The notes beneath the pieces are model-generated. The model was not told the DNA's origin and made no database searches. It worked only from the letters and a program-made list of their open reading frames with translations. Below, piece by piece: positions 13,712-35,889 of a DNA stretch of 51,108 bases. Origin of the DNA: an uncultured Thermoplasmatales archaeon (lineage in GTDB: Archaea > Thermoplasmatota > E2 > UBA202 > JdFR-43). The stretch is taken from positions 1 through 51,108 of the forward strand of contig CBEXJS010000003.1 in the NCBI GenBank assembly GCA_965563795.1. The letters run 5' to 3'. A program made the translations under genes and the position numbers. Every line of letters begins with the position of its first letter. The stretch's first letter is position 1.

Positions 13712-13817
13712 TGCTCCGCCTATAGATGGAGAAATAAAAATTGCTGAAAAAGTGTCTAAAGAAGAGATAAAAGAATTTAAAAAAATTAGTATTATTGCTA
13801 TTGGCATAAAAACTACT

Positions 13818-13889
13818 GCGGGCGTGGTCTAGGGGTTATGACGCGAGCTTCCCAAGCTCGTTGCCCGGGTTCGAATCCCGGCGCCCGCA
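13818..13889 (+). tRNA. tRNA-Gly(CCC); integration target
   Basis: GCGGGCG/CGCCCGC acceptor stem, CGAGC-TTCCCAA-GCTCG anticodon arm, CCGGG-TTCGAAT-CCCGG T arm. Confidence 0.96.
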
Positions 13890-13893
13890 TAAA
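13873..13893 (+). repeat. att site overlapping the tRNA 3' end
   Basis: GAATCCCGGCGCCCGCATAAA, identical to 35861-35881. Confidence 0.93.
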
Positions 13894-13935: not shown

Positions 13936-14475
13936 ATGGCAAGAAAGAAAGGCAGGGATAAAACCGAGACAATAAAACAGCGTGCCATTTATGTTTATCT
14001 TCCTTCCATTGAAATGGCAGAGGAATGGAAGAAAAGAGCTGAAAAAGCTGGCATATCCATCTCAAAGTTTGTTATAGAACATGTTGAAAATTCTTTGAGG
14101 CAAGAAGAAGGAGAGGATTTTGTTTCTAGAGCTGACTTAATAAAAAGAATAAGGGAACTTGAAAATGAAAATAAGGAACTGCAGAAGAAATACGAGATTT
14201 TATCGAAAGCATATGAAAAGCTGGAGGAAGAGCTGAAGTCATACAGAAGAATGCCATTTTATGAAAAAGAGTATATTGGAGCAAGAGGATATGAGAGGGA
14301 ACTAATAAAATTGTTCAAGAAAAAGAAAACTATAAGGAGTGAGGAACTGCTGGATGAACTCGGAGTATCTCCCCATGACACAGCTGCCATAAAGGCAATA
14401 AACAGGCAGCTGGAAAATCTAGAATTATATGGCTTAATCGAGCCCGTTATGGGGGGATGGAAATGGAAAGGATGA
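13936..14475 (+). CDS. Putative DNA-binding protein (RHH-like N-terminus, coiled coil, wHTH-like C-terminus), coupled to the integrase
   Basis: AIYVYLP..W...A...GISISKFV..VE RHH-like pattern; heptad region; LE.LE.YGLIE..GW end; ATGA overlap with the integrase. Confidence 0.6.
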   Translation: MARKKGRDKTETIKQRAIYVYLPSIEMAEEWKKRAEKAGISISKFVIEHVENSLRQEEGEDFVSRADLIKRIRELENENKELQKKYEILSKAYEKLEEELKSYRRMPFYEKEYIGARGYERELIKLFKKKKTIRSEELLDELGVSPHDTAAIKAINRQLENLELYGLIEPVMGGWKWKG

Positions 14476-15404
14476 TTTTACTTGATGTAAATGAAATATT
14501 AAAGGAATACAGGCAAGATTTAGAAATAATGAACCTAACAGATGAAACTGTAAGAAACTACTACTCAATGGTGAAAATTTTCATTGAATTTATGAGAAGA
14601 AATGGTTATGACATACTCAATGCAGAAAGATTCGCATTCATTCAGTTCCTCCAGTATTTAAAAAATGAAAGAAAAATTTCATTCAAAAGAATAAAGTACT
14701 ATTTCACAGCTTTAGCATCATTCTATGATTTCCTTGTCTATGCTGGTTACATAAACTCAAATCCTATTCCAGCAATAAGAAAAAGGTATCTGAAAAGCTA
14801 TAAAAGAAATGATTCTCCAGCAAAAAGAAAATTGATAAGCGTTGAGGAAATGGCCGCCTTTATTAATTCAATTATGGATCCAAGAGACAAAGCAATAGCA
14901 ATCCTTCTTGCTAAAACAGGAATAAGAAAAGGAGAGCTTATAAGAATAGATGTGGATGATATAAACTGGGAGGAAATGAGCATAACTTTAAAGCCAACAC
15001 CAAAGAGAAGCAACAGAATAGTTTTCTTCGATGCAGAATGTGCAAAAATTCTAAAGAGATGGCTCAGAATAAGAGAAAAGCTGAATGTGAAAACAAAAGC
15101 ATTATTTGTAAATCAATATGGAGGAAGATTGGAAAGAAATGGAGTTTATGAAGCAATTGTGAAATGGGCAAAGAAATTTGGCATATATGATGTAAATTCA
15201 GATAAACTGGAGGATCATTTCAATCCTCACTGCTTCCGCCACTGGTTCACAACAATGTTGCTGAGAAATGGCATGCCAAGAGAATATGTACAGGAACTCA
15301 GAGGAGACGCGAGAAACGAGGCAATAGATATTTATCATCATATTGACAAGGAAGAATTAAGAAAGGCTTATCTAGCTACAATACCAAAGCTGGGTGTGGA
15401 GTGA
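14472..15404 (+). CDS. Tyrosine recombinase / integrase
   Basis: TGIRKGEL (R), HCFRH (HxxR), LRGD variant, DIY (Y); SAM-like N-domain; start taken at the ATGA overlap. Confidence 0.93.
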   Translation: MILLDVNEILKEYRQDLEIMNLTDETVRNYYSMVKIFIEFMRRNGYDILNAERFAFIQFLQYLKNERKISFKRIKYYFTALASFYDFLVYAGYINSNPIPAIRKRYLKSYKRNDSPAKRKLISVEEMAAFINSIMDPRDKAIAILLAKTGIRKGELIRIDVDDINWEEMSITLKPTPKRSNRIVFFDAECAKILKRWLRIREKLNVKTKALFVNQYGGRLERNGVYEAIVKWAKKFGIYDVNSDKLEDHFNPHCFRHWFTTMLLRNGMPREYVQELRGDARNEAIDIYHHIDKEELRKAYLATIPKLGVE

Positions 15405-15466: not shown

Positions 15467-17050
15467 ATGGAAGGGGGAAAACATTATCGTGATGTTTTAG
15501 GAGTATATTGGTGTAGAGAATGTAATGTCCCCCTTCTCTCTAAAAACTGCGGTAATTGTGATTCGCAAGGAGAATATGTAGCAATAGATATGAAGCCAGT
15601 TTTTTCAAAAGAAAAGGAAATGTATGAAGAATATTTCAAGTTGAAGCTTCCAGATAATTTGTTTATTTCGAGAAATAGATTAATCTTGGATGGTGCAACT
15701 CTTTGCTCATTCAAAATGGATTTTCATAAAATGAAATTAATACTTATTACTGACAGAAAAAAAGTTTTAAAAAGAATTAAAGAAGCGGAAAATCGAAACA
15801 AAGATGAATTTTGGAAGGATGTTAAAAAAGCAAATGAAACATCATTAAATGAAAAGATTAATGAAGCAATGGAATTTATTGAAAGAGTTTCTCATAAATA
15901 TTCAGATCGATTCAAGGTAATTTCATTTAGTGGAGGAAAAGATAGCGAAGTTACTGCAGATCTTGTTAAAAAAGTACTGGGTAAAGTGCCTTTATTTTTT
16001 GCAGATACCACGCTCGAATATGAAGAGACCATCGAATTCATAAAACGATTTGCTAAGAAATATGGTTTTGAGTTACTCACAGATGAAAATAACGATTTCT
16101 ATCGTAATGAAAATTGCATTTGGGACATGATCAAAGAATTAGGTCCTCCATCAATCCCTTATAGATGGTGTTGTTCAGTATTCAAAGCCTATCCGGTAAA
16201 CTTATTTCATAAAAAAATAAATGAGAAAACACTAGCTTTCGATGGTATAAGAAAATATGAATCCTTTAGAAGAAGGAAATACGAGCAAGTTTCTAGAATT
16301 AAAAAGATCGCAAACCAATTAGCTGCATACCCAATTTTTTACTGGAAAGAATTAGATGTATGGTTTTACATCTTCTTTAACAAAATGATTTATAACCCTT
16401 TGTACGAATATGGTCATAGGAGAGTCGGATGTTGGTTATGTCCAAATGCAAGTCCTTTTAACTGTTTTATTAGGAAAAAAACACATCCAGAAAAATGGGG
16501 ACAATTCGAAAAAGTTTTGTTAAAATATGCTTATGAACATGACAGAGATAAAAATTGGGTTATTGAAAACTACTGGAGATTGCGAAGACCAAAAAAGGAT
16601 AAAGTTCCAAAGGTAAAAAGAGAAGCGAAAGCTAATAACGTATTTTTATACAGGTTTACCTCACCAATTGACGAGCGCGTGTTTGAATTCTTTAAACCTC
16701 TAGGGGAATATCAAGAGAGAATAATCCAGTCTAAAAGCATAGAAGAAAAAGTGATAAAAATTGGGTCGGGCAATCCTATTTGCATTAAAGGTTTCATCGG
16801 GAAAAAAGAAATTATTGTAGAGATAAAGGAAAAAGACGAAATGAAAAATTTCGAAAGGCAATTACTCAAAGCAATAAACTGTGTTGGATGTGGGGGATGC
16901 ATAGGATATTGTCCCAACGGTGCACTGTACATAAAAAATAAGACGTTAATGATCGATGATTCGCGATGCACCAAGTGTAAGAAATGCGTAACAGCACCTT
17001 GTATCTCATTAAATTATAGGATTGAAAAAGCCATAATATTGGGGGGTTAA
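15467..17050 (+). CDS. PAPS-reductase-family (DndC/BrxP-like) protein with N-terminal zinc ribbon and C-terminal 4Fe-4S dicluster domain
   Basis: SFSGGKDS PP-loop, FADT, RWCC, GIRKYES, RVGCWLCP; CRECN..CGNC; CVGCGGCIGYCP..CTKCKKC. Confidence 0.88.
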   Translation: MEGGKHYRDVLGVYWCRECNVPLLSKNCGNCDSQGEYVAIDMKPVFSKEKEMYEEYFKLKLPDNLFISRNRLILDGATLCSFKMDFHKMKLILITDRKKVLKRIKEAENRNKDEFWKDVKKANETSLNEKINEAMEFIERVSHKYSDRFKVISFSGGKDSEVTADLVKKVLGKVPLFFADTTLEYEETIEFIKRFAKKYGFELLTDENNDFYRNENCIWDMIKELGPPSIPYRWCCSVFKAYPVNLFHKKINEKTLAFDGIRKYESFRRRKYEQVSRIKKIANQLAAYPIFYWKELDVWFYIFFNKMIYNPLYEYGHRRVGCWLCPNASPFNCFIRKKTHPEKWGQFEKVLLKYAYEHDRDKNWVIENYWRLRRPKKDKVPKVKREAKANNVFLYRFTSPIDERVFEFFKPLGEYQERIIQSKSIEEKVIKIGSGNPICIKGFIGKKEIIVEIKEKDEMKNFERQLLKAINCVGCGGCIGYCPNGALYIKNKTLMIDDSRCTKCKKCVTAPCISLNYRIEKAIILGG

Positions 17051-17051
17051 G

Positions 17052-20000
17052 ATGAAGTTGGAGGAAAAAATCGTAGAGGAAATTTATGAAAGAATAAAAA
17101 ACAGACTTTTAGGAAAAACAAATGAATATGATAGGATATTGGATAACAATCCAGATTCCATAATATTTGTGGGTAAGTTGCAATCAAAGGAGACCAGCGA
17201 AAAATATACTCAATATAAGACAATAATAAGCCCTAATTCAATTGGAATGGTTTTTAATCTTGTTGTAAAAAATCCCGACCCAACCATAGATGTAATTGTA
17301 AATTTTTCCATTTACTATAGAGTATATCCTTCATTTGAAGAGCAGAAAAATGCTACAATAAGAGAAGATATAAGAAAAGTTTGGAAAAAAGAAACAATAA
17401 AAACTACTTTTTCTTGTAAAGTAAAGGAAGGATCATATAATTTTAAGGAAGAATTAAAAAATAAAATTAAAGAAGCAATAGAGGGTAAATCTGGAAAACC
17501 ATATTATGAAACAGTTTATAGAGCAAAAGGAAATGCTAATTTTATTCCAGAAAAGCACCTAAAATCTGAAGAAGATTTTATAAAATATTTAAAAAGCAGA
17601 AATGGCAAGATATATGATATACCATACAACATAGATTTAAAGGTAGATATTACAGAATGTAATAACCATGAATTTAACATCAATATTACACTAGTTAATA
17701 ATACATCGAGTAAATCCCATGTCTTTTGTACAACGCTTTTTGATCCAGAAATAAAAATAGAATTAAAAGATAATAAGCTTGAAAGACAAAAACTGGAATT
17801 CATGCACGATGATGAAGGTAAAATATTTGATATTCCTGGAAAAGGTATTAACTGTTCTGTTGAATATGATGAGGAAAGTAACATTATAAAAACAACGGTA
17901 ATACCTACGTACAAACAAAAAAGATTAAAACCGCGTTCATCCGTAGGGAAATGGACTCCTTACTTCAAGGATTTGTCAACCGATCCTCTTCCTATTTTGG
18001 ATGGGATATATTCAGAAATGGAAAACTACTTGAATACACTATCAAAAGAAAAAGTTGCAGATAATGAGTTAGTAAAAGTAATGATGGAGCAATTTGAGGA
18101 TGAAATTAAACGTTTTAGGAAAGGAATAGAATTTTTGCGACGAGATGAGAAGGCATTAATGGCTTTTAAGTTAATGAATAGAGTAATGTTCGAAGCTACG
18201 CGTTCATCTGATGGCCGATGGTATATATTCCAAATAATATTCATTGTATCCAATTTAGATTGTTGTTTATCTCAAGAAGTGGATAAGGTGGAGGTTTTGC
18301 ATGTACCTACAGGAGGAGGAAAAACATGGAGTTATCTAGGGTTAGTTATTTTCTCTATTTTCTATGAGAGATTAAATAAAAAAGACTTTGGTGTAACGGC
18401 ATGGATAAAGTTTCCTCTAAGGATGCTGTCACTACAACAACTTGAGATTATTACAACCTTTATTTCCTATGCAAATAAAATTAAAGAAGAAACAGAATCT
18501 ATTAGAGATAGTGATCCTATCTCCGTCGGTTATCTAGTAGGAGGAAAAAATACCCCAAACACTTACAAACAAGCTAAGGAGTGGAAAGAGGATTTTAAGG
18601 TAGTAACAGACTGTCCATTTTGCAAGGGGAAAATAGAGATAGAATTTGATGATGATAAAGAGAGAGTGTACCATAAATGTACAAAGTGTGGAAAAATATT
18701 ACCCGTAATGGTTATAGATTATGAAATTTATAGATATTTACCCTCTGTCATCGTTTCGACTTTGGATAAAGCTGCTGTCTTAAATTACAATTATCGAGCA
18801 AAAAGTTTATTTGGTGGCCCAATAATAAAATGTGAAAAAAATTATGGTTATTTACCATATGGCCCCAACTGGTGTCTAAAAAGTAGATCAAATCAAAATT
18901 TCTCAGGATGTAAATACTATAAAAATGGAAAATGTACAAAAAATAAAATAAATGGGAAACCTCCTATTTTGTTGATTCAAGATGAACTCCATATGGTAAG
19001 AGAATTTGATGGTTGTCTTGATAGTTACTTAGAAGGCATCATAGAAGAAGTAATAAAGGGTTATGGTGGAGCTGGTCTAAAGGTAATTGCTCCCAGCGCC
19101 ACTGCTGCCGGTGTAGAAAGACAGGTGAAGCACCTATATTATAAGAAAGAGGCCAGAAAATTTCCGTTATTTAAGGAATTTTATTTTGAGGAAAAAGAAG
19201 AAATTCATAGGATTTCAGTAGGTATTTTACCAGTAGGTAGAGCGATAAATTGGGCTACATGGCATATTATAAAGGAAATAGAAAAAACATTGCAACAGAT
19301 GACTAAAGAGGCCAAAGATTTGAAGGATAAAGACAGATACCAAGTTTTGGAAAAATACTATAACATAATACTTGCTTATCATAGGTCCAAAAGAGATGCA
19401 AATGAACTCCAAAGTGGTTTGATGGGAATAATTAATGAAGAATTAAGAAGAGAGGGATTCGAGCCCATCAATATTAGTAAAACAGAAATAATAACAGGTG
19501 AGAAAAGCTTGGGGGAATTGAGAAAATTAATGGAAAGAATCGTCACTAACGATAGGAGTAAAAGGATAAAATTAATCGGATCAACTCTTATAATTTCACA
19601 CGGCATCGATTTTGATGAGTTAAACTTAATGGTATTTAGAAGCATGCCTAAAAGCGTATCAGAATACGAACAAGCAAGGAGTAGAGTTGGTAGAAAATTC
19701 CCTTCTCTTATATTCATAATATATCATGGCAATTTAGCAAGAGATCAAAGTTTTTACAAGTACTTCATCCCCTTCCATGGAAATGTCAATAAATATGTTG
19801 AGAATATCCCCTTAAATAGATGGGCATCTAAATCAGTGGATTTGATGGCTCCTTCCGCAATTTTATCCGTTATTCATTCTTATTTCATTGATAACAAAAA
19901 TTTAAACATGAGTTTCATGGAATGTAGAGAATTAGTGAGGGCGATAAAATCCAAAAAATTAACTAAGAATGAAATAATAGAGAAAGCTAGCGAATATTTG

Positions 20001-20324
20001 TATTTAAATTCAGCACCCCGTGCTTACCAAGAAAAGTTTAAAGAGGATGTTGAGCATTGGCTACAACTCCTGTTAGACTCGTGTCATTCCAAATCCCCAC
20101 GAAATCAATTAGCCGAGATATATAAAAAAGAGGATAGGCCTGTTTACAGCCTTAGAACCATTGAAAAGGAAGTCTCATTCTATCCTACCCCTGAAACCCA
20201 TAGTATAGAGCCCGAAATTACCAAATCTGTAAATGTTGAACCTTCTCCTGAATATAGATACACGTCAACTGATGAAGAGCTAGAGGGTATTTACGTGGAT
20301 ACTGAAGAGGAGGTGAATGCATGA
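17052..20324 (+). CDS. drmA: DISARM DrmA-like SF2 helicase
   Basis: PTGGGKT, PLRMLSLQQ, IQDELH, SAT, ISHGID, EYEQARSRVGR; CxxC..CxxC insertions. Confidence 0.85.
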   Translation: MKLEEKIVEEIYERIKNRLLGKTNEYDRILDNNPDSIIFVGKLQSKETSEKYTQYKTIISPNSIGMVFNLVVKNPDPTIDVIVNFSIYYRVYPSFEEQKNATIREDIRKVWKKETIKTTFSCKVKEGSYNFKEELKNKIKEAIEGKSGKPYYETVYRAKGNANFIPEKHLKSEEDFIKYLKSRNGKIYDIPYNIDLKVDITECNNHEFNINITLVNNTSSKSHVFCTTLFDPEIKIELKDNKLERQKLEFMHDDEGKIFDIPGKGINCSVEYDEESNIIKTTVIPTYKQKRLKPRSSVGKWTPYFKDLSTDPLPILDGIYSEMENYLNTLSKEKVADNELVKVMMEQFEDEIKRFRKGIEFLRRDEKALMAFKLMNRVMFEATRSSDGRWYIFQIIFIVSNLDCCLSQEVDKVEVLHVPTGGGKTWSYLGLVIFSIFYERLNKKDFGVTAWIKFPLRMLSLQQLEIITTFISYANKIKEETESIRDSDPISVGYLVGGKNTPNTYKQAKEWKEDFKVVTDCPFCKGKIEIEFDDDKERVYHKCTKCGKILPVMVIDYEIYRYLPSVIVSTLDKAAVLNYNYRAKSLFGGPIIKCEKNYGYLPYGPNWCLKSRSNQNFSGCKYYKNGKCTKNKINGKPPILLIQDELHMVREFDGCLDSYLEGIIEEVIKGYGGAGLKVIAPSATAAGVERQVKHLYYKKEARKFPLFKEFYFEEKEEIHRISVGILPVGRAINWATWHIIKEIEKTLQQMTKEAKDLKDKDRYQVLEKYYNIILAYHRSKRDANELQSGLMGIINEELRREGFEPINISKTEIITGEKSLGELRKLMERIVTNDRSKRIKLIGSTLIISHGIDFDELNLMVFRSMPKSVSEYEQARSRVGRKFPSLIFIIYHGNLARDQSFYKYFIPFHGNVNKYVENIPLNRWASKSVDLMAPSAILSVIHSYFIDNKNLNMSFMECRELVRAIKSKKLTKNEIIEKASEYLYLNSAPRAYQEKFKEDVEHWLQLLLDSCHSKSPRNQLAEIYKKEDRPVYSLRTIEKEVSFYPTPETHSIEPEITKSVNVEPSPEYRYTSTDEELEGIYVDTEEEVNA

Positions 20325-21880
20325 AAAGAAGCATAACTGGTGCTATGTTTTACTATCATGAGGGTGCTTATTTCACTACAGCAAAAAATTATCGGGCTAG
20401 GGTTAAAAAGTGGGAAGAACGCCCATTGAGAATAGAAAACGAGGAGTCTGTAAAGAAAAAATTTCTTAGAGAAATAGAAAGAGTGACTAAGACAAAAATA
20501 AAAATGGATGGTTTAGTGTTTATAGAGCCGTACAAAATAGAATATGAAATTAGTCCTTTGTTTTTTTATTGTTCAAATAATGATTGTGGGTGGAATATAA
20601 AATTTGATAATGTTGAACAATTAACAAAATATATTGAAAAGGAAAAGAATTTTAGATGCAAGAGGTGCGGTAGTTCATTAATCCAGTCTGGACATGTTTT
20701 TGCATGTACCTGTGGAAATATTCAAGACATGGATGAGAAATACTGTAGTGGAAAAAATAAGACCCATACAAAACAGAAAATGGATTTTATACGTCCCTCG
20801 ATATATGAAGTATATACTTGGAAGTATAAATGTCGTATATGTGGTAGAGAAATATGGCCTATAATAAAGAAATGTGAAAATTGTGGAGAAAAAATGGACT
20901 TGAAACCCACCGAGGCTAGTGGATTAACAACTCCTTTAAGTTTTACTACACCTGCTTTTGAGACGCCTAATTATAAGTGGATTGCTAAATATTTAGAAAT
21001 TAAATTATCCGATGAGGAAAAACAATTTTTAATTAAACATAAAGACAAGGTAGATGAAAATAAATATTTCAAAAACAAGATCGAAGAATTTTTAAGGAAC
21101 GATTTTAAAGAGTATGAATATATTTTAGAACGATTATCAGACTATGCCGCCATTAATGAGGGTATAAAATATCCTCCAAAAACTTATCCAGATTTAGGTA
21201 TCAAATTCTATAAAACGGATAGAATAAATTTAGTTAAAGGAGTGTATGCGTATATTGTGAATGCCATTAAACCTTCTTCTAAGACAAGTTTTAACTTTTT
21301 TATTCATAGTGGAAAATACAATGTGTTGGCTAATAAAATAGAAAACACTGAAGGGATATTATTAGAATTTGATAGAAGCAAAATAATAGAATGGATGGAA
21401 GAAAATAATTTCCTTCAATTTTTACCCAGTAAAAAAGATTTGAAAAAATGGTTTATTGAAATGGGGATGGAGGGAAGCATCAATAAAAAACTGCCAAATG
21501 ATATCACAAATAAAATAATAACGCTTATCCATACAATTTCACATGGTTTCATCGTGAGTATGCCCACTATAAGTGGCGTGAGTATAGACTCTGTTAGTGA
21601 ACTATTGTTTCCAGAGATACCTGCTGTATTGCTTTATACTACATATACAACCTCAATTGGTCATTTGGAGAGTTTATTTGATAACATGATGGACGAATGG
21701 ATAGCAAAAACAAAAGACGATACTCTAAAAAATTGTGTACATGATCCCATATGTCTAAAGGAGGACCATGCATGTGCAGGATGTATAATGATAAGTGAGG
21801 TAGTTTGTAGTAAATTTAACGAATTTCTAGACAGGAGATACGTAATAGGCGATGAGGATATAAAGGGGTTTTGGGAATGA
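20321..21880 (+). CDS. drmB: DISARM DrmB-like DUF1998 protein
   Basis: HTISH, C-terminal CVHDPIC..ACAGC..EVVC..FNEFLDR; ATGA-coupled to the helicase. Confidence 0.85.
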   Translation: MKRSITGAMFYYHEGAYFTTAKNYRARVKKWEERPLRIENEESVKKKFLREIERVTKTKIKMDGLVFIEPYKIEYEISPLFFYCSNNDCGWNIKFDNVEQLTKYIEKEKNFRCKRCGSSLIQSGHVFACTCGNIQDMDEKYCSGKNKTHTKQKMDFIRPSIYEVYTWKYKCRICGREIWPIIKKCENCGEKMDLKPTEASGLTTPLSFTTPAFETPNYKWIAKYLEIKLSDEEKQFLIKHKDKVDENKYFKNKIEEFLRNDFKEYEYILERLSDYAAINEGIKYPPKTYPDLGIKFYKTDRINLVKGVYAYIVNAIKPSSKTSFNFFIHSGKYNVLANKIENTEGILLEFDRSKIIEWMEENNFLQFLPSKKDLKKWFIEMGMEGSINKKLPNDITNKIITLIHTISHGFIVSMPTISGVSIDSVSELLFPEIPAVLLYTTYTTSIGHLESLFDNMMDEWIAKTKDDTLKNCVHDPICLKEDHACAGCIMISEVVCSKFNEFLDRRYVIGDEDIKGFWE

Positions 21881-22722
21881 AAGAGTTAACTCCAGAACTA
21901 ATTAACAAAGAGATAGTGCCTGCGATAAAGGAGTTATTTCAAACCAGAAAATATCTCAACGGATCCTCTATTATACAAGTATTTATCAAAAAACTCAATC
22001 TCCCTCATGATATAGCTGAAGAAGCTCTAAGATTATTGATCGGAGAGAAAGTTTTATTAAATGTGAAACAACCAAAGGATTTATACAGTGATTATTTTAA
22101 ATTAAATTACGAAATAATTGATAGTTATATTTATACTCCAAGTCCTGAGGAAGAACAAGAATCCGAAATAATTAAAAGCGGAATAAAAAGTCTTTCTACC
22201 TATAAGGAAGAGGTTTATCCAGTCTTTGAGTTACCTCCTCATATAATTAGACAGTTAAATGTTGATTTTATCAGGCAGAAAGAATTATTTAGAAATTTGA
22301 TATCAGGAGCGAAAAAAGAAATAAAAATAACATCTCCGTTTATGGATGAAACTGGATTAGCAAACTACATTTATGAATTAATTGAAAAATGCAAAAATGG
22401 AGTGAAAATTAAGATATTGACTCGCAATGACGAGAGTAGAAAAAGAGTTATAAACCTGTTAAAATCAACGTTATCAAAAATAAACCCAGATTTAGTTGAA
22501 ATAAGATCTTACCACGAAACAGATGAGTTCGGTGTAACAGAATCTATTCATTCAAAAATGATAATTGTTGATGACATTGAGGTATATATTGGAAGCGGAG
22601 AGATAAGAAAGAACAGTATTTTTGGGGTATTGTGCGAAGCAGGTATTTATATTAAAGGCCCTATTGCAAAAATATACTCAAAGTTTTTTGATGTCATATG
22701 GGGTGAGAGCCATCCAGTCTAG
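21871..22722 (+). CDS. drmC: DISARM DrmC-like phospholipase D family nuclease
   Basis: ITSPF, single HKD motif HSKMIIVDD, YIGS..., EAGI. Confidence 0.82.
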   Translation: MGMKELTPELINKEIVPAIKELFQTRKYLNGSSIIQVFIKKLNLPHDIAEEALRLLIGEKVLLNVKQPKDLYSDYFKLNYEIIDSYIYTPSPEEEQESEIIKSGIKSLSTYKEEVYPVFELPPHIIRQLNVDFIRQKELFRNLISGAKKEIKITSPFMDETGLANYIYELIEKCKNGVKIKILTRNDESRKRVINLLKSTLSKINPDLVEIRSYHETDEFGVTESIHSKMIIVDDIEVYIGSGEIRKNSIFGVLCEAGIYIKGPIAKIYSKFFDVIWGESHPV

Positions 22723-24925
22723 ACAACTTAGATGTTATCTTCCAAAAGACATTGCGATACGTTATAAAGATGGTGGGGGAAAAGAAAGAGAACTTAAACC
22801 CGGAAAAATATTTGAGATTTATTGCAGAGTGATTAATTACTATGCTTCAAAACGAAGAAATCTGCTTATTTTCTTTCCCATCGAAAATTTTTACTATATA
22901 CCTTTATTTGCTCTATCATTGTACTATTTTTATTTAGAGAGGAAAAATGTGGGACAATCGCAAATCTTGGTAATTTCGGGCAAATATAAACATCTGGAAA
23001 AATTATACCAAAACATATTCCACACATCAAGTAAACATTATGTCAAGTATTTTGCAAATATTAAATTTACCTGTCGGTTACCCATTGTAAATGGAAACTA
23101 TAATGCTATAGTCATAGATACGGCAAATTTTTCATCGTTACAACTTAGAAAGATTCTTGAATATTGCCAAGATATAGACAAATTTTTATTGTTTGTATCT
23201 TCATTTTTTGATATAAATTTATACCAGTTTGTAAGGGAAAAATTAGATATTGGTTTCTTTGCTATTAATCCGAATGTGATAAGAGAGTATATCAAGGAAA
23301 ACGAGAGAGAATTGTTGATCATAGATAATAATATACTAGATGTCCCAATTGATGTTTTCATAAAAAATTTTTATGAGAAGATAAAAATAGAGTTTGTAAA
23401 TGATGAATCTATAAATAATTTATTGACAAGATGTTGGAAAAACTATTACTACATTCTGGATAAATATAAGGGTGATAAAAGAATTTATAAGTTTATAATG
23501 TTTTATCGGTTTACCTTGCGATATCTTTCCCAAGTTTATTTGCCCTCGAGTTTACTAGAAAAATATTCATCGTTTTACTCTAACATAAAATCACCGGACA
23601 AACTAATTGAACAGTTATTAAGGATATCTAGCGAATTGGATGAAAATATTCTCGAGTCTTCTGCACTCGATATAAAAAGATTGGCTGAATTGATTGAAGC
23701 TGGAAAAAAGAGAGTTTTTGAAAAAATAATTAAACAACTTGCTAAAACTGGAAGAAAGGTTCTTATAGTGGTTCATTCACTAAATGAAGGAAAAGCAGTT
23801 AAAGAATTGTTATGTACTCTTTTTGGTTGCGACGAAAAAGAAATCAAAAAATATGGTATAGAAGTTCATATAATGAGAGCGATTTTCAATATCAACAACA
23901 TCTACGATTGGGTTATATTCCCTACCCCAACATATCATTATAAATCTTTTTCATTAATATCATCGCCTCTTATAAAAAATGTTATTTTCTTGGCTTACCC
24001 TATAGAATATAAGTATTACCTAAAATTTATTGAATCTTTAGATAAAGAATGGAAAAAATACACCATAGAGGAATCACTCAGACCTTTTATCGATAATAAG
24101 CATCTAGAAAAGCTGAAGAAACATCACATAACAATAAAAACCTTCAGCAGAAATGAAGATATTAAAAAAATATATGAAACATGGGATGATATAATAAAAG
24201 AAATTTTATCTGAGGATGAGGAACCACTAATTAACTTAGAAAACGATTACAGAAAAGTTGTTGTTCCGCTTGGTATTAAACAGTATTTAGTAAAGTTTGA
24301 GAATGGTGTAGAGTTAGTTTATGATGAGAATGAGCGAATCGATGTAATTGATGAAAACTACAAGATTAAAACAAAACATGCATCAGAGATAAAACCCGGT
24401 GATTTGGTCATTATTTATGATCAAGAGTTCCGTAAAAATCGTTATGAATCACTCATAGAAAAATTGAAAGAGGAACCAAAATATAAGAGACATTTAATAA
24501 ACATAGATATCTGGAAAAGAAGAGTTGCGGAGCTTTTGGAAGATAAAAATCTTGCAGAAGTTTTGACTAAAATGAAAAAGAAAGGTAGTAGACTACAACA
24601 TCCCTCAACTTTATATGCATGGAAAATGGGATATGTAATAGGGCCAAGAGATCCAAAAGACATCCAAAGAATTGCTGAACTGTTTAATGATGAAGTATTA
24701 AAAACATTATGGAAAGACATCGCTATCTCTATTAAAAGAATACGTGGATTTAATATAGAGGCTGGAAAAATCTTATCTCGTACAATAAAAGAAATATCGG
24801 AGGGAATTTTTATGACCCAACCTCAAATACAAAAAGAGGATGTATTAGGTATTACGGTAGCCGAAATAGCCCAAAATATTGATATTTTGAGAGTAATAAG
24901 TAAGGAAATAATAAAAGAAGAATAG
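22691..24925 (+). CDS. DrmE-like large accessory protein (start uncertain: 22622/22691/22703)
   Basis: About 750 aa, overlaps drmC, no intact Walker motifs; C-terminal IKPGD..W..W..IGP.D..I.RIA pattern recalled from DrmE-family proteins. Confidence 0.6.
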   Translation: MSYGVRAIQSRQLRCYLPKDIAIRYKDGGGKERELKPGKIFEIYCRVINYYASKRRNLLIFFPIENFYYIPLFALSLYYFYLERKNVGQSQILVISGKYKHLEKLYQNIFHTSSKHYVKYFANIKFTCRLPIVNGNYNAIVIDTANFSSLQLRKILEYCQDIDKFLLFVSSFFDINLYQFVREKLDIGFFAINPNVIREYIKENERELLIIDNNILDVPIDVFIKNFYEKIKIEFVNDESINNLLTRCWKNYYYILDKYKGDKRIYKFIMFYRFTLRYLSQVYLPSSLLEKYSSFYSNIKSPDKLIEQLLRISSELDENILESSALDIKRLAELIEAGKKRVFEKIIKQLAKTGRKVLIVVHSLNEGKAVKELLCTLFGCDEKEIKKYGIEVHIMRAIFNINNIYDWVIFPTPTYHYKSFSLISSPLIKNVIFLAYPIEYKYYLKFIESLDKEWKKYTIEESLRPFIDNKHLEKLKKHHITIKTFSRNEDIKKIYETWDDIIKEILSEDEEPLINLENDYRKVVVPLGIKQYLVKFENGVELVYDENERIDVIDENYKIKTKHASEIKPGDLVIIYDQEFRKNRYESLIEKLKEEPKYKRHLINIDIWKRRVAELLEDKNLAEVLTKMKKKGSRLQHPSTLYAWKMGYVIGPRDPKDIQRIAELFNDEVLKTLWKDIAISIKRIRGFNIEAGKILSRTIKEISEGIFMTQPQIQKEDVLGITVAEIAQNIDILRVISKEIIKEE

Positions 24926-27634: not shown

Positions 27635-27853
27635 ATGAAACTGAAGCCATGGGAAGAAATTGTAGGCTGGTTAGAAGAAATAAAAGATCTGAATGGAAAT
27701 ATAATTGCAAAGATATCTGGATATAGTGTGTTGCTTCCTAAATATATGAAAAAGAAACTGGAGAAATGCAAGGGAAAGAAGATAGGAATATTAAGGACAG
27801 ACATTAAAGGAAAGGAATATTTGTTAAGAGTAGAGAATGGAAAAAATAATTAA
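27635..27853 (+). CDS. Small basic beta-rich hypothetical protein
   Basis: MKLKPWEEIVG..KIGILRTD..YLLRV; overlaps the next gene. Confidence 0.6.
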   Translation: MKLKPWEEIVGWLEEIKDLNGNIIAKISGYSVLLPKYMKKKLEKCKGKKIGILRTDIKGKEYLLRVENGKNN

Positions 27854-28562
27854 AGGAAAATCAAAGAATACGATAAAGAACTATAAGTCAACTCTCAGAA
27901 AATTTATCAGAATCACAGGAAAGAAAATTGAAAAAGCAAGCATTGAAGATGTGAATAAATTTCTAGAAAAATTGAAGGAAGAAATGGAACCATCATCTGT
28001 TGCAAGACATGCCTATGCAATAAAATATTTTCTGAAAATGATGGGAAAATATGATGTTGCGAGTAAAATAGAAGTCGACCATATACAAAAGTTGCCACCA
28101 ACACTTACTGAAAAAGAAATTGAAAAACTGATAAAAGCCATAGAGAGTATTGATGAATACATCGTATTTACTCTAGGTTATTTCCTTGGGTTGAAAGCAT
28201 CCGAAGTAGCAGGCATAAAAATAGAGGATATTGACTTTACTGAACGTAAAATAAAGATAAGAGAAAGAGTATTACACATTCCTTCGCATGTTATTGAACC
28301 GTTGAAAAGATGGATACAGAGCAACAATTTAACTACTTATTTGTTTGAGGAAAATGGAAGAAAAGTTTCACCGGAACGTATTTCTTCAATTTTCAGAAAA
28401 TTGGCTGAAAGAGCAGGCATAAATGCTGCCTTCCATTCGCTGCGTAACACAAGAATATACGAAATGATCGACGAAAAGAATGCCGAAGAAATAATGAAAT
28501 TTGCTGGCTTTAAAAGCATTGTATCAGTGGCAAGATTTTATGTTTTGAAAGAAAAACGATAA
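27837..28562 (+). CDS. XerD-like tyrosine recombinase homologue with degenerate catalytic motifs
   Basis: S.NTI.NY SAM-like N-domain, KLP..LT..E, GLKASEV, HSLR, AGFKS, RFY. Confidence 0.8.
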   Translation: MEKIIKGKSKNTIKNYKSTLRKFIRITGKKIEKASIEDVNKFLEKLKEEMEPSSVARHAYAIKYFLKMMGKYDVASKIEVDHIQKLPPTLTEKEIEKLIKAIESIDEYIVFTLGYFLGLKASEVAGIKIEDIDFTERKIKIRERVLHIPSHVIEPLKRWIQSNNLTTYLFEENGRKVSPERISSIFRKLAERAGINAAFHSLRNTRIYEMIDEKNAEEIMKFAGFKSIVSVARFYVLKEKR

Positions 28563-28840: not shown

Positions 28841-30079
28841 ATGATAAAAGCAGAAACTGAATTCACGTTTCATAATGTAGGAGAAGGACTATTTTATTCC
28901 GCTAATATTAAATTATCTACTTCCTCCTTTCGGTTCATTTATGATTGTGGTTCTCGGCAGATAAAACTAATTGAGTCCGCAATTATTCGCTTTCTACACG
29001 ATATCAAAAACAAAGAAATAAGTTTATTAATTTTATCTCACTTACACGAAGATCATGTAAGCGGGATAAATGAATTATTTTCTCATTTTAATATTCATGA
29101 TGTCATATTACCGTATTTTTCTCCTATTGAAAGGTTATTAATTGCTTTAAGAAGATTAAATTTGCCTAATTGGTATTATCAATTTCTATCAGACCCTGTT
29201 GATTTTCTCATTAAAAAAGGAGCTAAAAGAGTAATTATTATAGGTGGGAAAAAGGGAGGGGAAGGTGCAATACCACCATATGAAATTCCGCCTTCGACTG
29301 AAAACAAATCTCCATCAAAAATAAATATAGAGAGACTCCCAGATGATAAAAATCTCGAAAAATTGGTTAGATCTAATGAAGAAAACTGGGAAAAGTACAT
29401 GAGTTTGGGGAAATTATTGATAAAGAGTCATAATGGATTTGTGATTGCGAACGGATTATGGTTATTCAGGTTTTTTAATTATAAAGTCGGAGTACAGACA
29501 CTCCAAACTTTCGAACGATGTTTACATGGATATAGGATTGATGAAAAAGATTTAAGAGAGGTGATTAGAAACAAAAAAAGTTTGAAGAGTTTAAAGGAGT
29601 GTTATAATCAAATTGCTACGAGTTTAAATAAAGACTTTAATAACACTTCATTAGTAGTTTATCACGGCCCTGTGGGTAAAGTAAATGCTGAACATGATAT
29701 ATATTGTTTCCCACTAGGTTGTTTAAACTTTACATATCCATATTTTGATAGATTTCATGAAAATAAGTTTGGACAAATTTTCACAGGAGACATCAGTTTA
29801 AAATTTAGATATAATGAGTTAATAAATCATTTCCAAAATTATTTAAGAGAAGTTTTAATCGTCCAAGTTCCTCATCATGGCGCACGTAAAAATTGGAATG
29901 GTAACATCCTAAATGATTTTCCAAATAGTAAAGTTTGGGTAGTTTCTGCAGGCTGTAGAAATATTTATGGACATCCATCTTTACATGTAATTAGAGACAT
30001 TTTATTTATGAGAAAACGGCCCTTGTGGGTAAATGAGTTAAGTTATGTACAGATAAGGGGCTTTATAAAATGGCAGTAA
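28841..30079 (+). CDS. ComEC/Rec2-like MBL-fold metallo-hydrolase (probable nuclease), soluble
   Basis: NVGEG, YDCG, SHLHEDH, NNTS, TGD, VPHHGA, YGHP. Confidence 0.85.
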   Translation: MIKAETEFTFHNVGEGLFYSANIKLSTSSFRFIYDCGSRQIKLIESAIIRFLHDIKNKEISLLILSHLHEDHVSGINELFSHFNIHDVILPYFSPIERLLIALRRLNLPNWYYQFLSDPVDFLIKKGAKRVIIIGGKKGGEGAIPPYEIPPSTENKSPSKINIERLPDDKNLEKLVRSNEENWEKYMSLGKLLIKSHNGFVIANGLWLFRFFNYKVGVQTLQTFERCLHGYRIDEKDLREVIRNKKSLKSLKECYNQIATSLNKDFNNTSLVVYHGPVGKVNAEHDIYCFPLGCLNFTYPYFDRFHENKFGQIFTGDISLKFRYNELINHFQNYLREVLIVQVPHHGARKNWNGNILNDFPNSKVWVVSAGCRNIYGHPSLHVIRDILFMRKRPLWVNELSYVQIRGFIKWQ

Positions 30080-30278
30080 TGTTATAAGTAAACAGAAGCT
30101 TGCTCGTAGTAAAATTTTTAGTATCTTAATTTATAAAAATTTATGGTGAGTAAGTTTATAGATATTCACTTTAACTCATATTTAGAAAGTTATGTGAATA
30201 AAACTATATTTTGCGTTAGTAGAAATTCCACATGTCGCCTTGGAAAATGTCACAGTTTCAAGAGGGTAGAAGGTGAAT

Positions 30279-30962
30279 ATGGTGATACCACAGGTTAGTT
30301 GTAAAATATATAAGTCAGAGATGATGAAAATAAACTTCTTACAAGAGCGATTAGAAAATTATCGGAAGGAATATCGCGAAGAGGGAGTATCTAAACCTAT
30401 TGTCGAGAACATAGAGAATTTTTCTTTAGCGAATAATGGAGTGGAATTTGTGTTTTTATTTGATTATATAGTGTCAATACCTTATAGAGAAGAAACACAA
30501 AAAGTGTTGAAAACAGCTAAAGCAGAAGTAAAAATACTAGACCTACAGAATTATAATTTATATTTAATATATTCATCATCAAAAATTGCAGATGGTATCA
30601 GGATTCGTTTAAGTAGAGCTTTATCTAATGTAGATGATTTTATCGAGAAAATTACAATACCTACAAGTGTATTAAAAGATATAGAAAATAACGATGCCAT
30701 CGAAATAAAATATGGTTGGTGGAATGACATTGAAACGTATGCAAAAAAGGGTGCACTTAAAGGTAATCTTTCTAGAAGTAGATTTTATAGTGAGTTTGAA
30801 AATTCCGGAGAACCTACACTAATAACTTTTGAATCCAGAGGAACAGGAAGAACTATCAGAATAACATCTCAAGGGGTGATTACTTTTTATGGACAAAATA
30901 TTACAAAACAAGAAATTGAAAATTATGTAAGGCAATGGTTGATCCCGAGGTTGAGATTATGA
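30279..30962 (+). CDS. Hypothetical protein
   Basis: Open frame with a GGTGA RBS before ATG 30279; no family recognised. Confidence 0.7.
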   Translation: MVIPQVSCKIYKSEMMKINFLQERLENYRKEYREEGVSKPIVENIENFSLANNGVEFVFLFDYIVSIPYREETQKVLKTAKAEVKILDLQNYNLYLIYSSSKIADGIRIRLSRALSNVDDFIEKITIPTSVLKDIENNDAIEIKYGWWNDIETYAKKGALKGNLSRSRFYSEFENSGEPTLITFESRGTGRTIRITSQGVITFYGQNITKQEIENYVRQWLIPRLRL

Positions 30963-31660: not shown

Positions 31661-31706
31661 TGGTATGAAACCATTGCGTCCCAGTGTGTGAGACTCGCCT
31701 TTCAGA

Positions 31707-31836
31707 TCTGCTAACAGCGGATAGGTTTGCATCTTCATTGCTTACCAAAATGTCACCGCCAAACTTATATTTTAACTAATAATTATCTATCCTTGATGAG
31801 GGCAGTAGCTTCACGTATCTGTCAGACATTATATGC
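31707..31836 (+). other. Degenerate attC-like site
   Basis: TGCTAAC-AGCGGATA ... TATCTGTCAGAC-ATTATATGC; each end complements a motif at the far side of the adjacent gene unit. Confidence 0.4.
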
Positions 31837-31860
31837 CATATTCAAGAGAGGTGAAAATAG

Positions 31861-33299: not shown

Positions 33300-33678
33300 T
33301 TATTAGCTTTGGCTACCCAAGTCAAAATATCAAAAATATATTGGAGGTAAGAGGATGGAGGAAAGTACTTGACAGTATAATATACGGGTTTATTTTTAAG
33401 CATTTCATGATACCTTCTGAATGTTTCAGTTTGAAATAATATGAGAAAATTAAAATTTAGCAATTTTCTCATCTATATTTATTATATTTGGTAAAAGAGC
33501 AAGAGATATGATAATTATGATTTGGCAAAATATCTTATATACGTCTATCCTGCATATAACTTTTAGGGTTTGCTTTATCTTATGCGGAAGCGGGCTTAAT
33601 GTATTATCACTAACTAAACATTGCATGTCGGTCATTATTTTTATCGGAAATTATTTCAATTCTATAATTTTTGAGAAT

Positions 33679-35860: not shown

Positions 35861-35881
35861 GAATCCCGGCGCCCGCATAAA
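35861..35881 (+). repeat. Distal att site (duplicated tRNA-Gly 3' end)
   Basis: GAATCCCGGCGCCCGCATAAA. Confidence 0.93.
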
Positions 35882-35889
35882 ATGTTAAA

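What the first reader, a model, noticed from the sequence alone, without database searches (positions are those of the whole stretch)
15467..24925. DISARM-like operon with a PAPS-reductase (DndC/BrxP-like) gene in place of the DNA methyltransferase
Seen: five co-oriented, tightly packed genes (1-bp gap, then overlaps): Fe-S PAPS-reductase-family protein, DrmA-like helicase, DrmB-like DUF1998, DrmC-like PLD, DrmE-like protein. I found no methyltransferase motif set anywhere in the element. Known: DISARM classes I and II pair drmABC with an adenine (DrmMI) or cytosine (DrmMII) methylase for self-marking. PAPS-reductase-fold enzymes (DndC, SspD) act in DNA phosphorothioation, and type 4 BREX carries such a gene in place of the PglX methylase. 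Inference: an archaeal DISARM variant in which self is marked by sulfur (phosphorothioate or another adenylation-dependent mark). I do not know of a description of this combination. Best candidate novel system in the window.
Basis: partly seen in the sequence, partly recalled or inferred. Interest (0 to 1): 0.92.

Follow-up and report, generated by a model that had tools for sequence, protein, structure and literature searches.

The report
DISARM operon with BrxP-type sulfur enzyme
An archaeal mobile island carries a DISARM-type antiviral operon in which the usual DNA methylase is replaced by an iron-sulfur enzyme of the family that writes sulfur into the DNA backbone, a pairing I found in no paper.

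Summary
Window 15467-24925 encodes five co-oriented, tightly packed genes. They are a BrxP-core PAPS-reductase/4Fe-4S protein, DrmA, DrmB, DrmC and DrmE.

The operon is cargo of a 22-kb element integrated at tRNA-Gly. The element has 20-nt direct repeats, and a same-genus genome has the empty site. No DNA methylase was found in the element.

The enzyme is not the host's housekeeping paralog. That paralog carries a PUA domain and lies on another contig.

Relatives at 26-32% identity sit in SspA/B/C/D-type phosphorothioation modules. A 40% relative is a full BrxP.

The pairing with DrmA recurs. A diverged metagenome contig shows the same junction directly. Two more pairs are inferred from shared contig lengths.

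Sister DISARM cores carry a B12-type radical SAM gene or a C5 methylase in the same role.

Weak point: the partners that phosphorothioation is known to need (SspB/DUF4007, SspC/BrxC) were not found, so the chemistry is inferred.

Verdict: a new variant of a known kind.

The parts
13817..13890 (+). tRNA-Gly(CCC), integration target. Its 3' end plus three bases (13874-13893) is the left copy of the 20-nt direct repeat.
   Evidence: ARAGORN; sequence; repeat search gave 2 matches against 0 expected in shuffles.
13936..14475 (+). 179-aa ORF of unknown function, overlapping the integrase start.
   Evidence: only weak coiled-coil-type hits.
14457..15404 (+). Tyrosine integrase (XerA-like) of the island.
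   Evidence: PF00589 1.7e-28. NCBIfam recomb_XerA_Arch 186 bits, below its cut-off of 220.
15467..17050 (+). BrxP-core enzyme. Domains: N-terminal Zn-ribbon (C16, C19, C28, C31), PP-loop PAPS-reductase (SGGKDS 155, RWCC 233, CxxC 322), an alpha/beta domain, and a 2x[4Fe-4S] ferredoxin domain (472-512). It has no DUF4007/SspB domain and no PUA domain.
   Evidence: AF2 model with pLDDT 90.7. Foldseek matched only the PP-loop domain, to CysH, APS reductase, CysD and TtuA.
17052..20324 (+). DrmA-like SF2 helicase (Walker A GGGKT at 421). It starts 1 nt after the stop of the BrxP-core gene, behind a G-rich ribosome-binding stretch.
   Evidence: PADLOC DrmA 1.9e-105. NCBIfam DISARM_DrmAS 310 bits, below its cut-off of 950. 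PDB 7s9v_A DrmA 6e-36..
20321..21880 (+). DrmB-like DUF1998/MZB protein, overlapping drmA by 4 nt.
   Evidence: PADLOC DrmB 3e-44. PF09369 24.8 bits against 24.2. NCBIfam DrmB_fam 66 bits, below its cut-off of 240.
21871..22722 (+). DrmC-like PLD nuclease with one HKD motif (HSKMIIVD at 227). The likely start is the ATG at 21877.
   Evidence: PLDc_2 1.9e-12; PADLOC DrmC 9.5e-14.
22622..24925 (+). DrmE family protein. The ORF opens at a TTG at 22622; an ATG at 22691 is an alternative start.
   Evidence: PF24957 DrmE_C 6.9e-30. NCBIfam DrmE_fam 155 bits, above its cut-off of 80. PADLOC DrmE 3.8e-17.
27837..28562 (+). Second, shorter tyrosine integrase inside the island.
   Evidence: PF00589 1.3e-19.
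28841..34869 (+). Further island cargo: a metallo-beta-lactamase-fold protein (28841-30079), three ORFs without family, an Mrr_cat nuclease with a TIR/Nuc_deoxyrib_tr-like C-terminus (32457-33299), and a HEPN (Swt1 / PDC-M34B) protein (33508-34869).
35862..35881 (+). Right copy of the 20-nt direct repeat (aatcccggcgcccgcataaa), marking the island's right end.
   Evidence: In same-genus genome G358 the tRNA-Gly is joined directly to window 35861 onward.

Best explanation
This is a defence operon of the DISARM class-2 type (DrmA helicase, DrmB DUF1998 partner, DrmC PLD nuclease, DrmE). It is carried by a 22-kb integrative element at tRNA-Gly of an archaeon.

The place of the self-marking cytosine methylase DrmMII is taken by a BrxP-core enzyme. 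That enzyme combines a PP-loop ATP-pyrophosphatase of the PAPS-reductase fold with a 2x[4Fe-4S] domain.

Shown: the gene set, its packing, its mobility, the absence of a detectable methylase, the enzyme's kinship with BrxP/SspD, and the recurrence of the BrxP-core/DrmA junction.

Inferred: the enzyme adenylates a site on host DNA and inserts sulfur. The likeliest product is a backbone phosphorothioate; a thiolated base or another adenylation-dependent mark is less likely. Also inferred: DrmAB loads on incoming DNA, as in solved DISARM, and is damped on marked DNA.

The enzyme has no SspB/DUF4007 or SspC/BrxC partner. Site choice would therefore have to come from its own Zn-ribbon N-domain or from the DISARM core (DrmA/B/E). 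Sulfur would come from a host desulfurase or from sulfide through the Fe-S domain.

My odds:
- A functional unit of BrxP-core with DrmABCE: about 0.85.
- Self-marking of DNA: about 0.55.
- The mark is a phosphorothioate: about 0.35.
For: (1) Operon anatomy and family hits.

(2) Canonical archaeal relatives carry an annotated DNA cytosine methylase beside DrmE-DrmA-DrmB-DrmC. Examples are H. volcanii pHV1 and Halobacterium pGSL19_284. Two further Halobacteriota loci do so by probe (L218, L219). No methylase was found in the island here.

(3) The enzyme belongs to the BrxP/SspD kind.
- PADLOC BrxP scores 228 bits over model positions 102-500 of 779.
- The PAPS + alpha/beta + Cys-rich ferredoxin layout is the one described for BrxP in PMC12839542 (passage).
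- Relative P0044 (40% identity) is a full BrxP with a C-terminal SspB/DUF4007 domain.
- Twelve fetched loci, plus the Treponema plasmid used as probe, place 26-32% relatives next to SspB- and SspC-like genes. Nine of the 12 also have a cysteine desulfurase.

(4) It is not the housekeeping paralog.
- The host keeps a 574-aa copy on contig C28 beside secY. That copy has a PUA domain and passes NCBIfam NF010368/NF010367 (594 and 572 bits).
- The island copy lacks PUA and scores 269 and 252 bits.
- In a 177-row FastTree the two lie in separate clades, of 47 and 35 rows, each with SH-like support 100.

(5) Recurrence.
- Metagenome contig L086 has a 70%-identical BrxP-core gene. Three nt later comes the first 68 codons of a DrmA: 51-54% identical to the window's and 91% to the N-terminus of full-length P0122.
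P0015 and P0125 share 5989 and the same sources.
- A simulation expects 0.20 chance matches; P(2 or more) = 0.017.
- In the DrmA tree these DrmAs form one 5-row clade with the window's (support 99).

(6) The slot is swappable. The sister DrmA clade (L220, L221) and G190 (L119) carry a homologous B12-domain radical SAM gene next to DrmA-B-(C)-E.

(7) Precedent. BREX type 4 uses BrxP in place of the methylase and makes phosphorothioates (passages). Pbe restriction modules pair with either DndCD or methylases (PMC6459918, passages).

(8) Mobility. A same-genus genome has the empty site. DrmE_C was found in 2 of 401 genomes sampled from the host's phylum.
Against: - No SspB/DUF4007, SspC/BrxC, DndD/E, PglZ or BrxL was found among the island's ORFs.
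- No DUF4007 was found in the genome, but that search's control rang nowhere.
- tblastn of the whole genome with SspB-, SspC- and SspA-like probes found only a 24%-identical class-V aminotransferase on contig C7.
- The PAPS + ferredoxin layout is shared with the PUA-bearing paralog, which probably acts on RNA. The layout alone therefore does not say DNA or phosphorothioate.
- NCBIfam cut-offs are not reached by DrmA, DrmB or DrmC.
- No BrxP-core gene lay near DrmE in any of 12 loci examined from 802 genomes plus one plasmid.
- Members of the island copy's clade were not found in 301 Thermoproteota genomes (threshold 1e-70) or 400 Thermoplasmatota genomes (threshold 1e-60). Both answers note that no positive control rang.
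- Two of the three recurrence cases rest on contig lengths. One other such coincidence (35096) proved false.
- DISARM can discriminate by DNA structure without methylation sites (PMC9142583, passages), so a marker may not be needed.
- Nothing here is experimental.
Confidence: 0.55

Rival explanations
1. The BrxP-core enzyme works with DrmABCE but is not a self-marker. It would act on the invader or on nucleotides, as an effector or sensor that adenylates or thiolates foreign nucleic acid. Alternatively it supports the core in another way. Self/non-self would then rest on DNA structure alone.
For: DrmAB is reported to be activated by 5'-overhang ssDNA and to restrict phages lacking methylation sites (PMC9142583, passages). 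The known phosphorothioation partner genes were not found. A preprint lists a PAPS reductase paired with a sensor protein in a defence operon (10.64898/2026.04.06.716658, passage).
Against: In relatives the same slot holds methylases. All characterised BrxP/SspD/DndC enzymes that I read about are writers on host DNA.
Confidence: 0.25
2. The PAPS-reductase gene is a passenger. It would be a diverged copy of the archaeal PUA-type RNA-modifying enzyme, or part of another system, that merely lies next to a methylase-less and perhaps decaying DISARM.
For: The host lineage has a conserved paralog: 13 of 13 genomes of its own family and 12 of 12 of the other family of its order. The BrxP model also rings in 13 of 14 control genomes at E <= 0.001.
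Against: - A 1-nt gap to drmA with a ribosome-binding stretch.
- The same junction in L086 at 72% DNA identity.
- Separate clades in the tree.
- No PUA domain, and scores below the paralog family's cut-offs.
- All five ORFs are intact.
- Pieces of the operon, 99-100% alike, stand in contigs of three other studies.
Confidence: 0.08
3. The system uses a methylase after all. Either one encoded elsewhere in the genome (type I-like methylase on C11, another on C73) or an undetected one among the island's unassigned ORFs marks self. The BrxP-core enzyme would add a second, optional mark.
For: The genome holds N6_Mtase hits on C11 (6.8e-63) and C73. Four island ORFs have no family.
Against: The island is mobile and absent from a congener, so a marker left behind in the chromosome would not travel with it. 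None of the unassigned ORFs gave any methylase hit at E <= 0.05.
Confidence: 0.1

Closest known systems
DISARM class 2 (DrmE-DrmA-DrmB-DrmC with cytosine methylase DrmMII)
   Same: DrmA, DrmB (DUF1998/MZB), DrmC (PLD) and DrmE are all present, intact and in one operon on a mobile island.
   Different: No methylase; a BrxP-core Fe-S PP-loop enzyme sits in its place. The gene order is BrxP-core, A, B, C, E, whereas the haloarchaeal plasmids read E, A, B, C plus methylase. DrmA, DrmB and DrmC fall below NCBIfam's cut-offs.
BREX type 4 (BrxP, BrxC, PglZ, BrxL)
   Same: A methylase-type slot is filled by a BrxP-family enzyme. The PAPS + alpha/beta + Cys-rich ferredoxin layout is shared. BREX type 4 was reported to make phosphorothioates.
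   Different: The window protein lacks BrxP's C-terminal DUF4007/SspB domain: the match stops at model position 500 of 779. No BrxC, PglZ or BrxL hit appeared among the scanned ORFs. The partner genes are DISARM genes.
SspABCD-type phosphorothioation modules with a BrxP-core SspD
   Same: Same protein family at 26-32% identity. The N-terminal Zn-ribbon, PP-loop and ferredoxin cysteines are invariant across alignment A1.
   Different: Those loci encode SspB (1.9e-45), SspC (5.9e-128) and SspA (2e-38) directly downstream. The Treponema plasmid and L007 also carry a PbeA-like helicase, an ATPase and a PLD gene. The window has none of SspA, SspB or SspC.
DndCDEA-PbeABCD, the archaeal phosphorothioate-based defence (PMC6459918)
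   Same: It pairs a PAPS-reductase-family writer with a helicase/PLD-containing module in archaea. That paper reports Pbe modules beside either DndCD or methylases, so writers can be swapped (passages).
   Different: That writer is DndC with DndD, DndE and DndA. PbeA/B/C/D are a different gene set with no DUF1998 protein. No Pbe model matched the window's proteins.
Archaeal PUA-PAPS-reductase-ferredoxin protein (NCBIfam PRK13795 group)
   Same: About 36% identity, with the same Zn-ribbon, PP-loop and ferredoxin parts.
   Different: It has a PUA domain, lies in a conserved core setting beside secY, and is present in all 25 genomes of the two nearest families. The island copy has none of these features and lies in another clade.

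Membership tests
DISARM class 2 | DrmA SF2 helicase | tested here: met
   PADLOC DrmA 1.9e-105. PDB DrmA 7s9v_A 6e-36. NCBIfam 310 bits is below its equivalog cut-off of 950, so this is a divergent member.
DISARM class 2 | DrmB with DUF1998/MZB domain, encoded separately right after DrmA | tested here: met
   PADLOC DrmB 3e-44. PF09369 24.8 bits against 24.2. 4-nt overlap with drmA.
DISARM class 2 | DrmC PLD-family nuclease | tested here: met
   PLDc_2 1.9e-12; PADLOC DrmC 9.5e-14; HKD motif at 227.
DISARM class 2 | DrmE | tested here: met
   PF24957 104.5 bits against a cut-off of 27. NCBIfam DrmE_fam 155 bits against 80.
DISARM class 2 | Cytosine-5 DNA methylase DrmMII in the locus | tested here: not met
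   No PF00145, PF01555 or PF02384 hit on contig C3. No methylase among the scanned island ORFs.
DISARM class 2 | Protection against viruses and plasmids | not testable with these tools
   Needs expression and challenge assays.
BREX type 4 | BrxP (PAPS reductase + ferredoxin-like region + DUF4007) | tested here: inconclusive
   The core matches (228 bits, model positions 102-500 of 779), but the DUF4007 part is absent.
BREX type 4 | BrxC, PglZ and BrxL | tested here: not met
   No such PADLOC hit among the 18 ORFs scanned. An SspC/BrxC-like probe found nothing in the genome.
Ssp/Dnd phosphorothioate modification module | PP-loop PAPS-reductase-fold sulfurtransferase (SspD/DndC) | tested here: met
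   SspD 2e-11 and DndC 2.6e-9; SGGKDS and RWCC motifs; fold.
Ssp/Dnd phosphorothioate modification module | DNA-recognising or nicking partner (SspB/DUF4007 or DndE) and an ATPase (SspC or DndD) | tested here: not met
   The PF13182 search had no positive control.
Ssp/Dnd phosphorothioate modification module | Cysteine desulfurase (linked or host-supplied) | tested here: inconclusive
   None in the island. A 24%-identical class-V aminotransferase lies on contig C7.
Ssp/Dnd phosphorothioate modification module | Phosphorothioate present in DNA | not testable with these tools
   Needs LC-MS or iodine cleavage.
Archaeal PUA-PAPS-reductase-ferredoxin housekeeping family (PRK13795) | PUA domain, and a score above NF010367/NF010368 cut-offs | tested here: not met
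   No PUA hit. Scores are 252 and 269 bits against cut-offs of 456 and 588; the C28 paralog scores 572 and 594.

The most novel reading that the evidence does not exclude
A stand-alone BrxP-core enzyme, with no SspB/DUF4007, SspC/BrxC or DndD/E, writes a sulfur mark on DNA by using the DISARM machine itself (DrmA/B/E) as its DNA-scanning and targeting partner. That would be a minimal writer of phosphorothioate or of a new thio-modification.

More broadly, one archaeal lineage of DISARM cores has exchanged its writer among a C5 methylase, a B12-type radical SAM enzyme and a PAPS-reductase-type enzyme. DISARM would then read several chemically different self-marks.
Probability: 0.3. Interest if true: 0.85.

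Novelty: new variant of a known kind. Interest (0 to 1): 0.7.

Why it matters
DISARM is described as methylation-based. How it tells self from foreign DNA is still debated. A natural variant whose only candidate writer is a sulfur-inserting Fe-S enzyme gives a direct test of whether the DrmAB core reads the chemistry of a mark or only DNA structure.

It also tests whether a BrxP-type enzyme can modify DNA without the SspB/SspC-type partners thought to be required.

Together with the radical SAM sister variant, it shows that the writer slot of one defence core is modular. That affects how defence-system finders call incomplete DISARM loci. It may also point to DNA modifications not yet catalogued in archaea.

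Tried and rejected
- Housekeeping PAPS/APS reductase or FAD synthetase. Rejected: the best NCBIfam hits are the archaeal PRK13795 group, not CysH (75 bits against a cut-off of 154). The host keeps its own PUA-bearing copy.

- Searches for DNA of related loci.
  - Genome contigs with alignment A1 gave 80 loci, all at 32% identity or less. None of the 80 held a DrmA/B/C/E match at 1e-5.
  - Metagenome contigs with the single protein gave one 2.2-kb contig, L086. It later proved informative.
  - Viral contigs with A1 gave 80 loci, none with Drm genes.
  - A degenerate YRWCCxVFK pattern in viral contigs gave one chance match.
  - Plasmids held no close relative.

- G190, the only other DrmE genome in the host's phylum sample, has its locus cut at drmB by a contig end. 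No DrmA was found with the window's protein.

- The DrmB word search returned only 4 proteins and no contig-length match.

- Contig-length coincidences judged unsafe or false.
  - 10677 (P0034/P0163): the DrmA-like partner lies in a far clade.
  - 12695 against 12696: not equal.
  - 35096 (P0175 against the Treponema contig of L010): P0175 is not in that genome.

- In the tree, 15 rows were labelled 'PT module'. Only 13 have SspB/SspC-like neighbours on record. L009 and L122 end at the contig edge and were labelled by their place in the tree.
  - Rows left out of that tree: listed proteins shorter than 480 aa, and loci L087, L002, L032, L124, L016, L108, L114, L022 and L023 (duplicates or fragments).
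  - Both trees are FastTree with local support only.

- Complex prediction of the BrxP-core protein with DrmE residues 24-490 gave 'no answer'. I draw nothing from it.

- Laid runs. Short contigs 99-100% alike cover parts of the operon in X2, X3 and X4, and in an RNA-library run X7 of the same sample as X1. No listed piece bridges the BrxP-core/drmA junction. DNA carry-over in the RNA library cannot be excluded, so transcription is not shown. Parts without cover mean nothing.

- The ESM Atlas gave only PAPS_reduct/Fer4 clusters.

- Papers.
  - Ofir et al. 2018 (the original DISARM paper) is not held. What I say of classes 1 and 2 beyond searches is recalled.
  - Supplementary tables of Bell et al. 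2025 (the YprA survey, which mentions 'many uncharacterized DISARM-like classes'), of the BREX type 4 preprint and of PMC6459918 could not be seen. They may list this combination.
  - Of the 42 papers, only 20 were listed.

Full report
**1. What is there**

Window 15467-24925 holds five + strand ORFs with a 1-nt gap and then overlaps. G-rich ribosome-binding stretches precede drmA, drmB and drmC.

- Gene 1 (527 aa) has PF01507 at residues 151-327 (1.8e-41) and a 4Fe-4S dicluster domain at 471-510. In PADLOC it matches BrxP (4.3e-68, model positions 102-500 of 779), SspD and DndC.
- Genes 2 to 5 match DrmA (1.9e-105), DrmB (3e-44), DrmC (9.5e-14) and DrmE (3.8e-17). In Pfam, DrmB also matches MZB/DUF1998, DrmC matches PLDc_2, and DrmE matches DrmE_C at 6.9e-30.
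- By NCBIfam's strict cut-offs only DrmE_fam passes (155 against 80). DrmA (310 against 950), DrmB (66 against 240) and DrmC are divergent.
- DrmA matches the solved Serratia DrmA, 7s9v_A (6e-36).
- Motifs: SGGKDS 155, RWCC 233, CxxC 322, two CxxCxxCxxxC groups, Walker A GGGKT 421 in DrmA, and one HKD motif in DrmC.

**2. Setting**

The host is an archaeon. Archaeal alanine-tRNA ligase and the archaeosine enzyme RaSEA in the window both pass their cut-offs. The genome is 1.46 Mb and 95% complete.

A tRNA-Gly(CCC) at 13817-13890 is followed by a small ORF, a tyrosine integrase and the operon. The last 17 bases of the tRNA plus three more recur at 35862-35881. The 22-base pattern searched, which contains them, found 2 places and none in 100 shuffles.

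In a genome of the same genus (G358) the tRNA-Gly is joined directly to window 35861 onward. The 22 kb between are therefore an insertion. A second congener (G147) has the island's last 0.8 kb, 96% alike, near its tRNA-Gly.

The island also carries:
- a second integrase;
- a metallo-beta-lactamase-fold protein;
- an Mrr-type nuclease with a TIR-like end;
- a HEPN protein.

DrmE_C was found in 2 of 401 genomes sampled from the host's phylum.

**3. No methylase**

Every island ORF of 100 aa or more was scanned with Pfam and PADLOC. None is a methylase.

Six-frame searches of the genome with PF00145, PF01555 and PF02384 hit contigs C11, C73, C48, C12 and C1. None hit C3, which is the window.

By contrast, H. 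volcanii pHV1 and a Halobacterium plasmid carry an annotated DNA cytosine methylase beside DrmE-DrmA-DrmB-DrmC. Two chromosomal Halobacteriota loci, L218 and L219, also match the methylase probe.

**4. What kind of PAPS-reductase protein**

A word-based search found 546 relatives, mostly from metagenomes. The closest is 82% identical.

Across 30 diverse members these features are invariant: the Zn-ribbon cysteines C16, C19 and C28 (C31 is kept in at least 90%), GGKDS, WCC, C322/C325 and eight ferredoxin cysteines.

The host's phylum has a conserved paralog, found in 150 of 401 genomes. It is in all 13 genomes of the host's family and all 12 of the other family of its order.
- The host's own copy is at C28:10188-11912. 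It is intact, lies near secY, and has a PUA domain.
- It passes NF010368 and NF010367 (594 and 572 bits).
- The island copy has no PUA domain and scores 269 and 252 bits.

A FastTree of 177 rows puts the island copy in a 47-row clade (support 100). It is separate from:
- the PUA clade (35 rows, support 100);
- a 25-row clade of bacterial and Methanobrevibacter proteins;
- Bacteroidales BrxP.

In the 25-row clade, 13 rows have SspB- and SspC-like genes directly downstream, and most also have a cysteine desulfurase. PADLOC confirms SspB 1.9e-45, SspC 5.9e-128 and SspA 2e-38 on the Treponema plasmid.

P0044, at 40% identity, is a full-length BrxP with the SspB/DUF4007 domain.

The layout matches the published description of BrxP (PMC12839542, passage).

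An AlphaFold model is confident (pLDDT 90.7). Solved structures match only its PP-loop domain. No DndC, SspD or BrxP structure turned up by sequence either.

**5. Is the linkage recurrent?**

Direct evidence: contig L086 is 72% identical in DNA over 1.7 kb. It has a 70%-identical BrxP-core gene followed after 3 nt by the start of a DrmA. That start is 51-54% identical to the window's and 91% to the N-terminus of full-length DrmA P0122.

Indirect evidence: BrxP-core P0022 and DrmA P0124 both list a longest contig of 50038 from the same sources. P0015 and P0125 both list 5989.
- A jitter simulation expects 0.20 exact matches between the two lists; P(2 or more) = 0.017.
- These DrmAs are the 4th and 5th closest of 71 to the window's.
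- They form one 5-row clade with the window's DrmA, P0122 and P0123 (support 99).
- I treat a third match (10677) as chance. A further coincidence (35096) was shown to be false, so this kind of evidence is weak on its own.

Against wide recurrence:
- None of 80 genome loci, all at 32% identity or less, had Drm genes.
- None of 12 DrmE loci had a BrxP-core gene.
- The clade was not found in 301 and 400 genomes of two other archaeal phyla, though neither search had a positive control.

The variant is real but rare in the genomes I could reach.

**6. A parallel variant**

Three loci share the window's gene order: L220 and L119 read A-B-C-E, and L221 reads A-B-E with no DrmC match. These loci come from G834, G1037 and G190.

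Each has a homologous protein with radical SAM hits next to the operon; the copy in L220 also has a B12-binding domain. The three are 31-53% identical to each other. None of the three loci matched the methylase probe.

Their DrmAs are the sister clade of the BrxP-linked ones. So the writer slot of this DISARM lineage has been refilled more than once.

**7. How it most likely works**

Shown: the parts and their linkage.

Inferred from the BrxP/SspD/DndC families: the enzyme uses ATP at its PP-loop to activate a site on DNA and delivers sulfur with help from its Fe-S domain. The resulting mark spares host DNA from DrmAB, whose ATPase is reported to be lower on modified DNA (PMC9142583, passages).

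The difficulty is that the ATPase and DNA-recognition partners described as core to phosphorothioation were not found. The sources are the EcoSal review passage and the BREX type 4 preprint.

So one of three things holds:
- the DISARM core supplies those roles;
- the mark is something else;
- the enzyme is not a self-marker.

I rank these as given in the explanation sections.

**8. Comparison and novelty**

It works like DISARM class 2 and like BREX type 4's writer swap. It fails one defining feature of each: no DrmMII, and no BrxC/PglZ/BrxL or DUF4007.

The archaeal DndCDEA-PbeABCD system uses different genes on both sides.

Full-text searches found no paper that links the two:
- DISARM, PAPS reductase, DrmA;
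- BrxP and DISARM;
- PAPS reductase, DUF1998, phospholipase D, defense;
- DrmE and phosphoadenosine, 0 papers;
- DISARM, radical SAM, DrmA.

The YprA-helicase survey has no mention of PAPS, BrxP, DndC or phosphorothioate in its main text. The Dnd reappraisal has no mention of DISARM, DUF1998 or YprA.

Supplements were closed and the original DISARM paper is not held, so an earlier listing in a table cannot be excluded.

**9. Verdict**

Observation confirmed. Interpretation partly supported. This is a new variant of a known kind. Interest 0.7.

Noticed in passing
L220:832-2001 (+), L221:8823-10079 (+), L119:5737-6909 (-): Three archaeal DISARM-like loci carry a homologous protein with radical SAM hits next to the operon. 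L220 and L119 read DrmA-B-C-E; L221 reads A-B-E with no DrmC match. The proteins are 389-418 aa and 31-53% identical to each other; the L220 copy also has a B12-binding domain. None of the three loci matched the C5-methylase probe. Their DrmAs are sister to the BrxP-linked clade. I found no paper linking DISARM cores with such an enzyme.
   Followed up: partly
G000 contig C28:10188-11912 (-), = L120: A 574-aa protein with Zn-ribbon, PUA, PAPS-reductase and 2x[4Fe-4S] parts lies near secY. It is conserved in all 25 genomes of the two nearest families and in 150 of 401 genomes of the phylum sample. NCBIfam calls it only 'hypothetical protein' (PRK13795). It is probably an RNA-directed sulfur or adenylation enzyme of unknown target.
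   Followed up: partly
L202 (Treponema saccharophilum pTS1, 146231-167826) and L007: Here BrxP-core, SspB, SspC and SspA genes are followed by a PbeA-like helicase, an ATPase and a PLD gene. This is a phosphorothioation module of BrxP-core type joined to a Pbe-like restriction part. The BrxP-core gene itself has no annotated CDS in the plasmid table.
   Followed up: partly
window 32457-33299 and 33508-34869: Two further defence-like genes lie in the same island. One is an Mrr_cat nuclease fused to a TIR / nucleoside-deoxyribosyltransferase-like domain. The other is a 453-aa HEPN (Swt1; PADLOC PDC-M34B, 5e-38) protein.
   Followed up: no
window 8374-10973: The GH92 glycosyl hydrolase gene (8500-10821) is missing from the otherwise colinear contig of same-genus genome G358. 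This is a second strain-specific insertion or deletion in the window.
   Followed up: no
L233 (G147:C6) 5202-6143, against window 34883-35901: Another congener has only the island's right-end module (two small ORFs, 96% alike) about 1 kb from its tRNA-Gly. It could be a remnant or a related element with other cargo.
   Followed up: no
window 27837-28562: A second, shorter tyrosine integrase lies in the middle of the island. The 22 kb may be two elements in tandem, but no internal copy of the repeat was found at up to 3 mismatches.
   Followed up: partly
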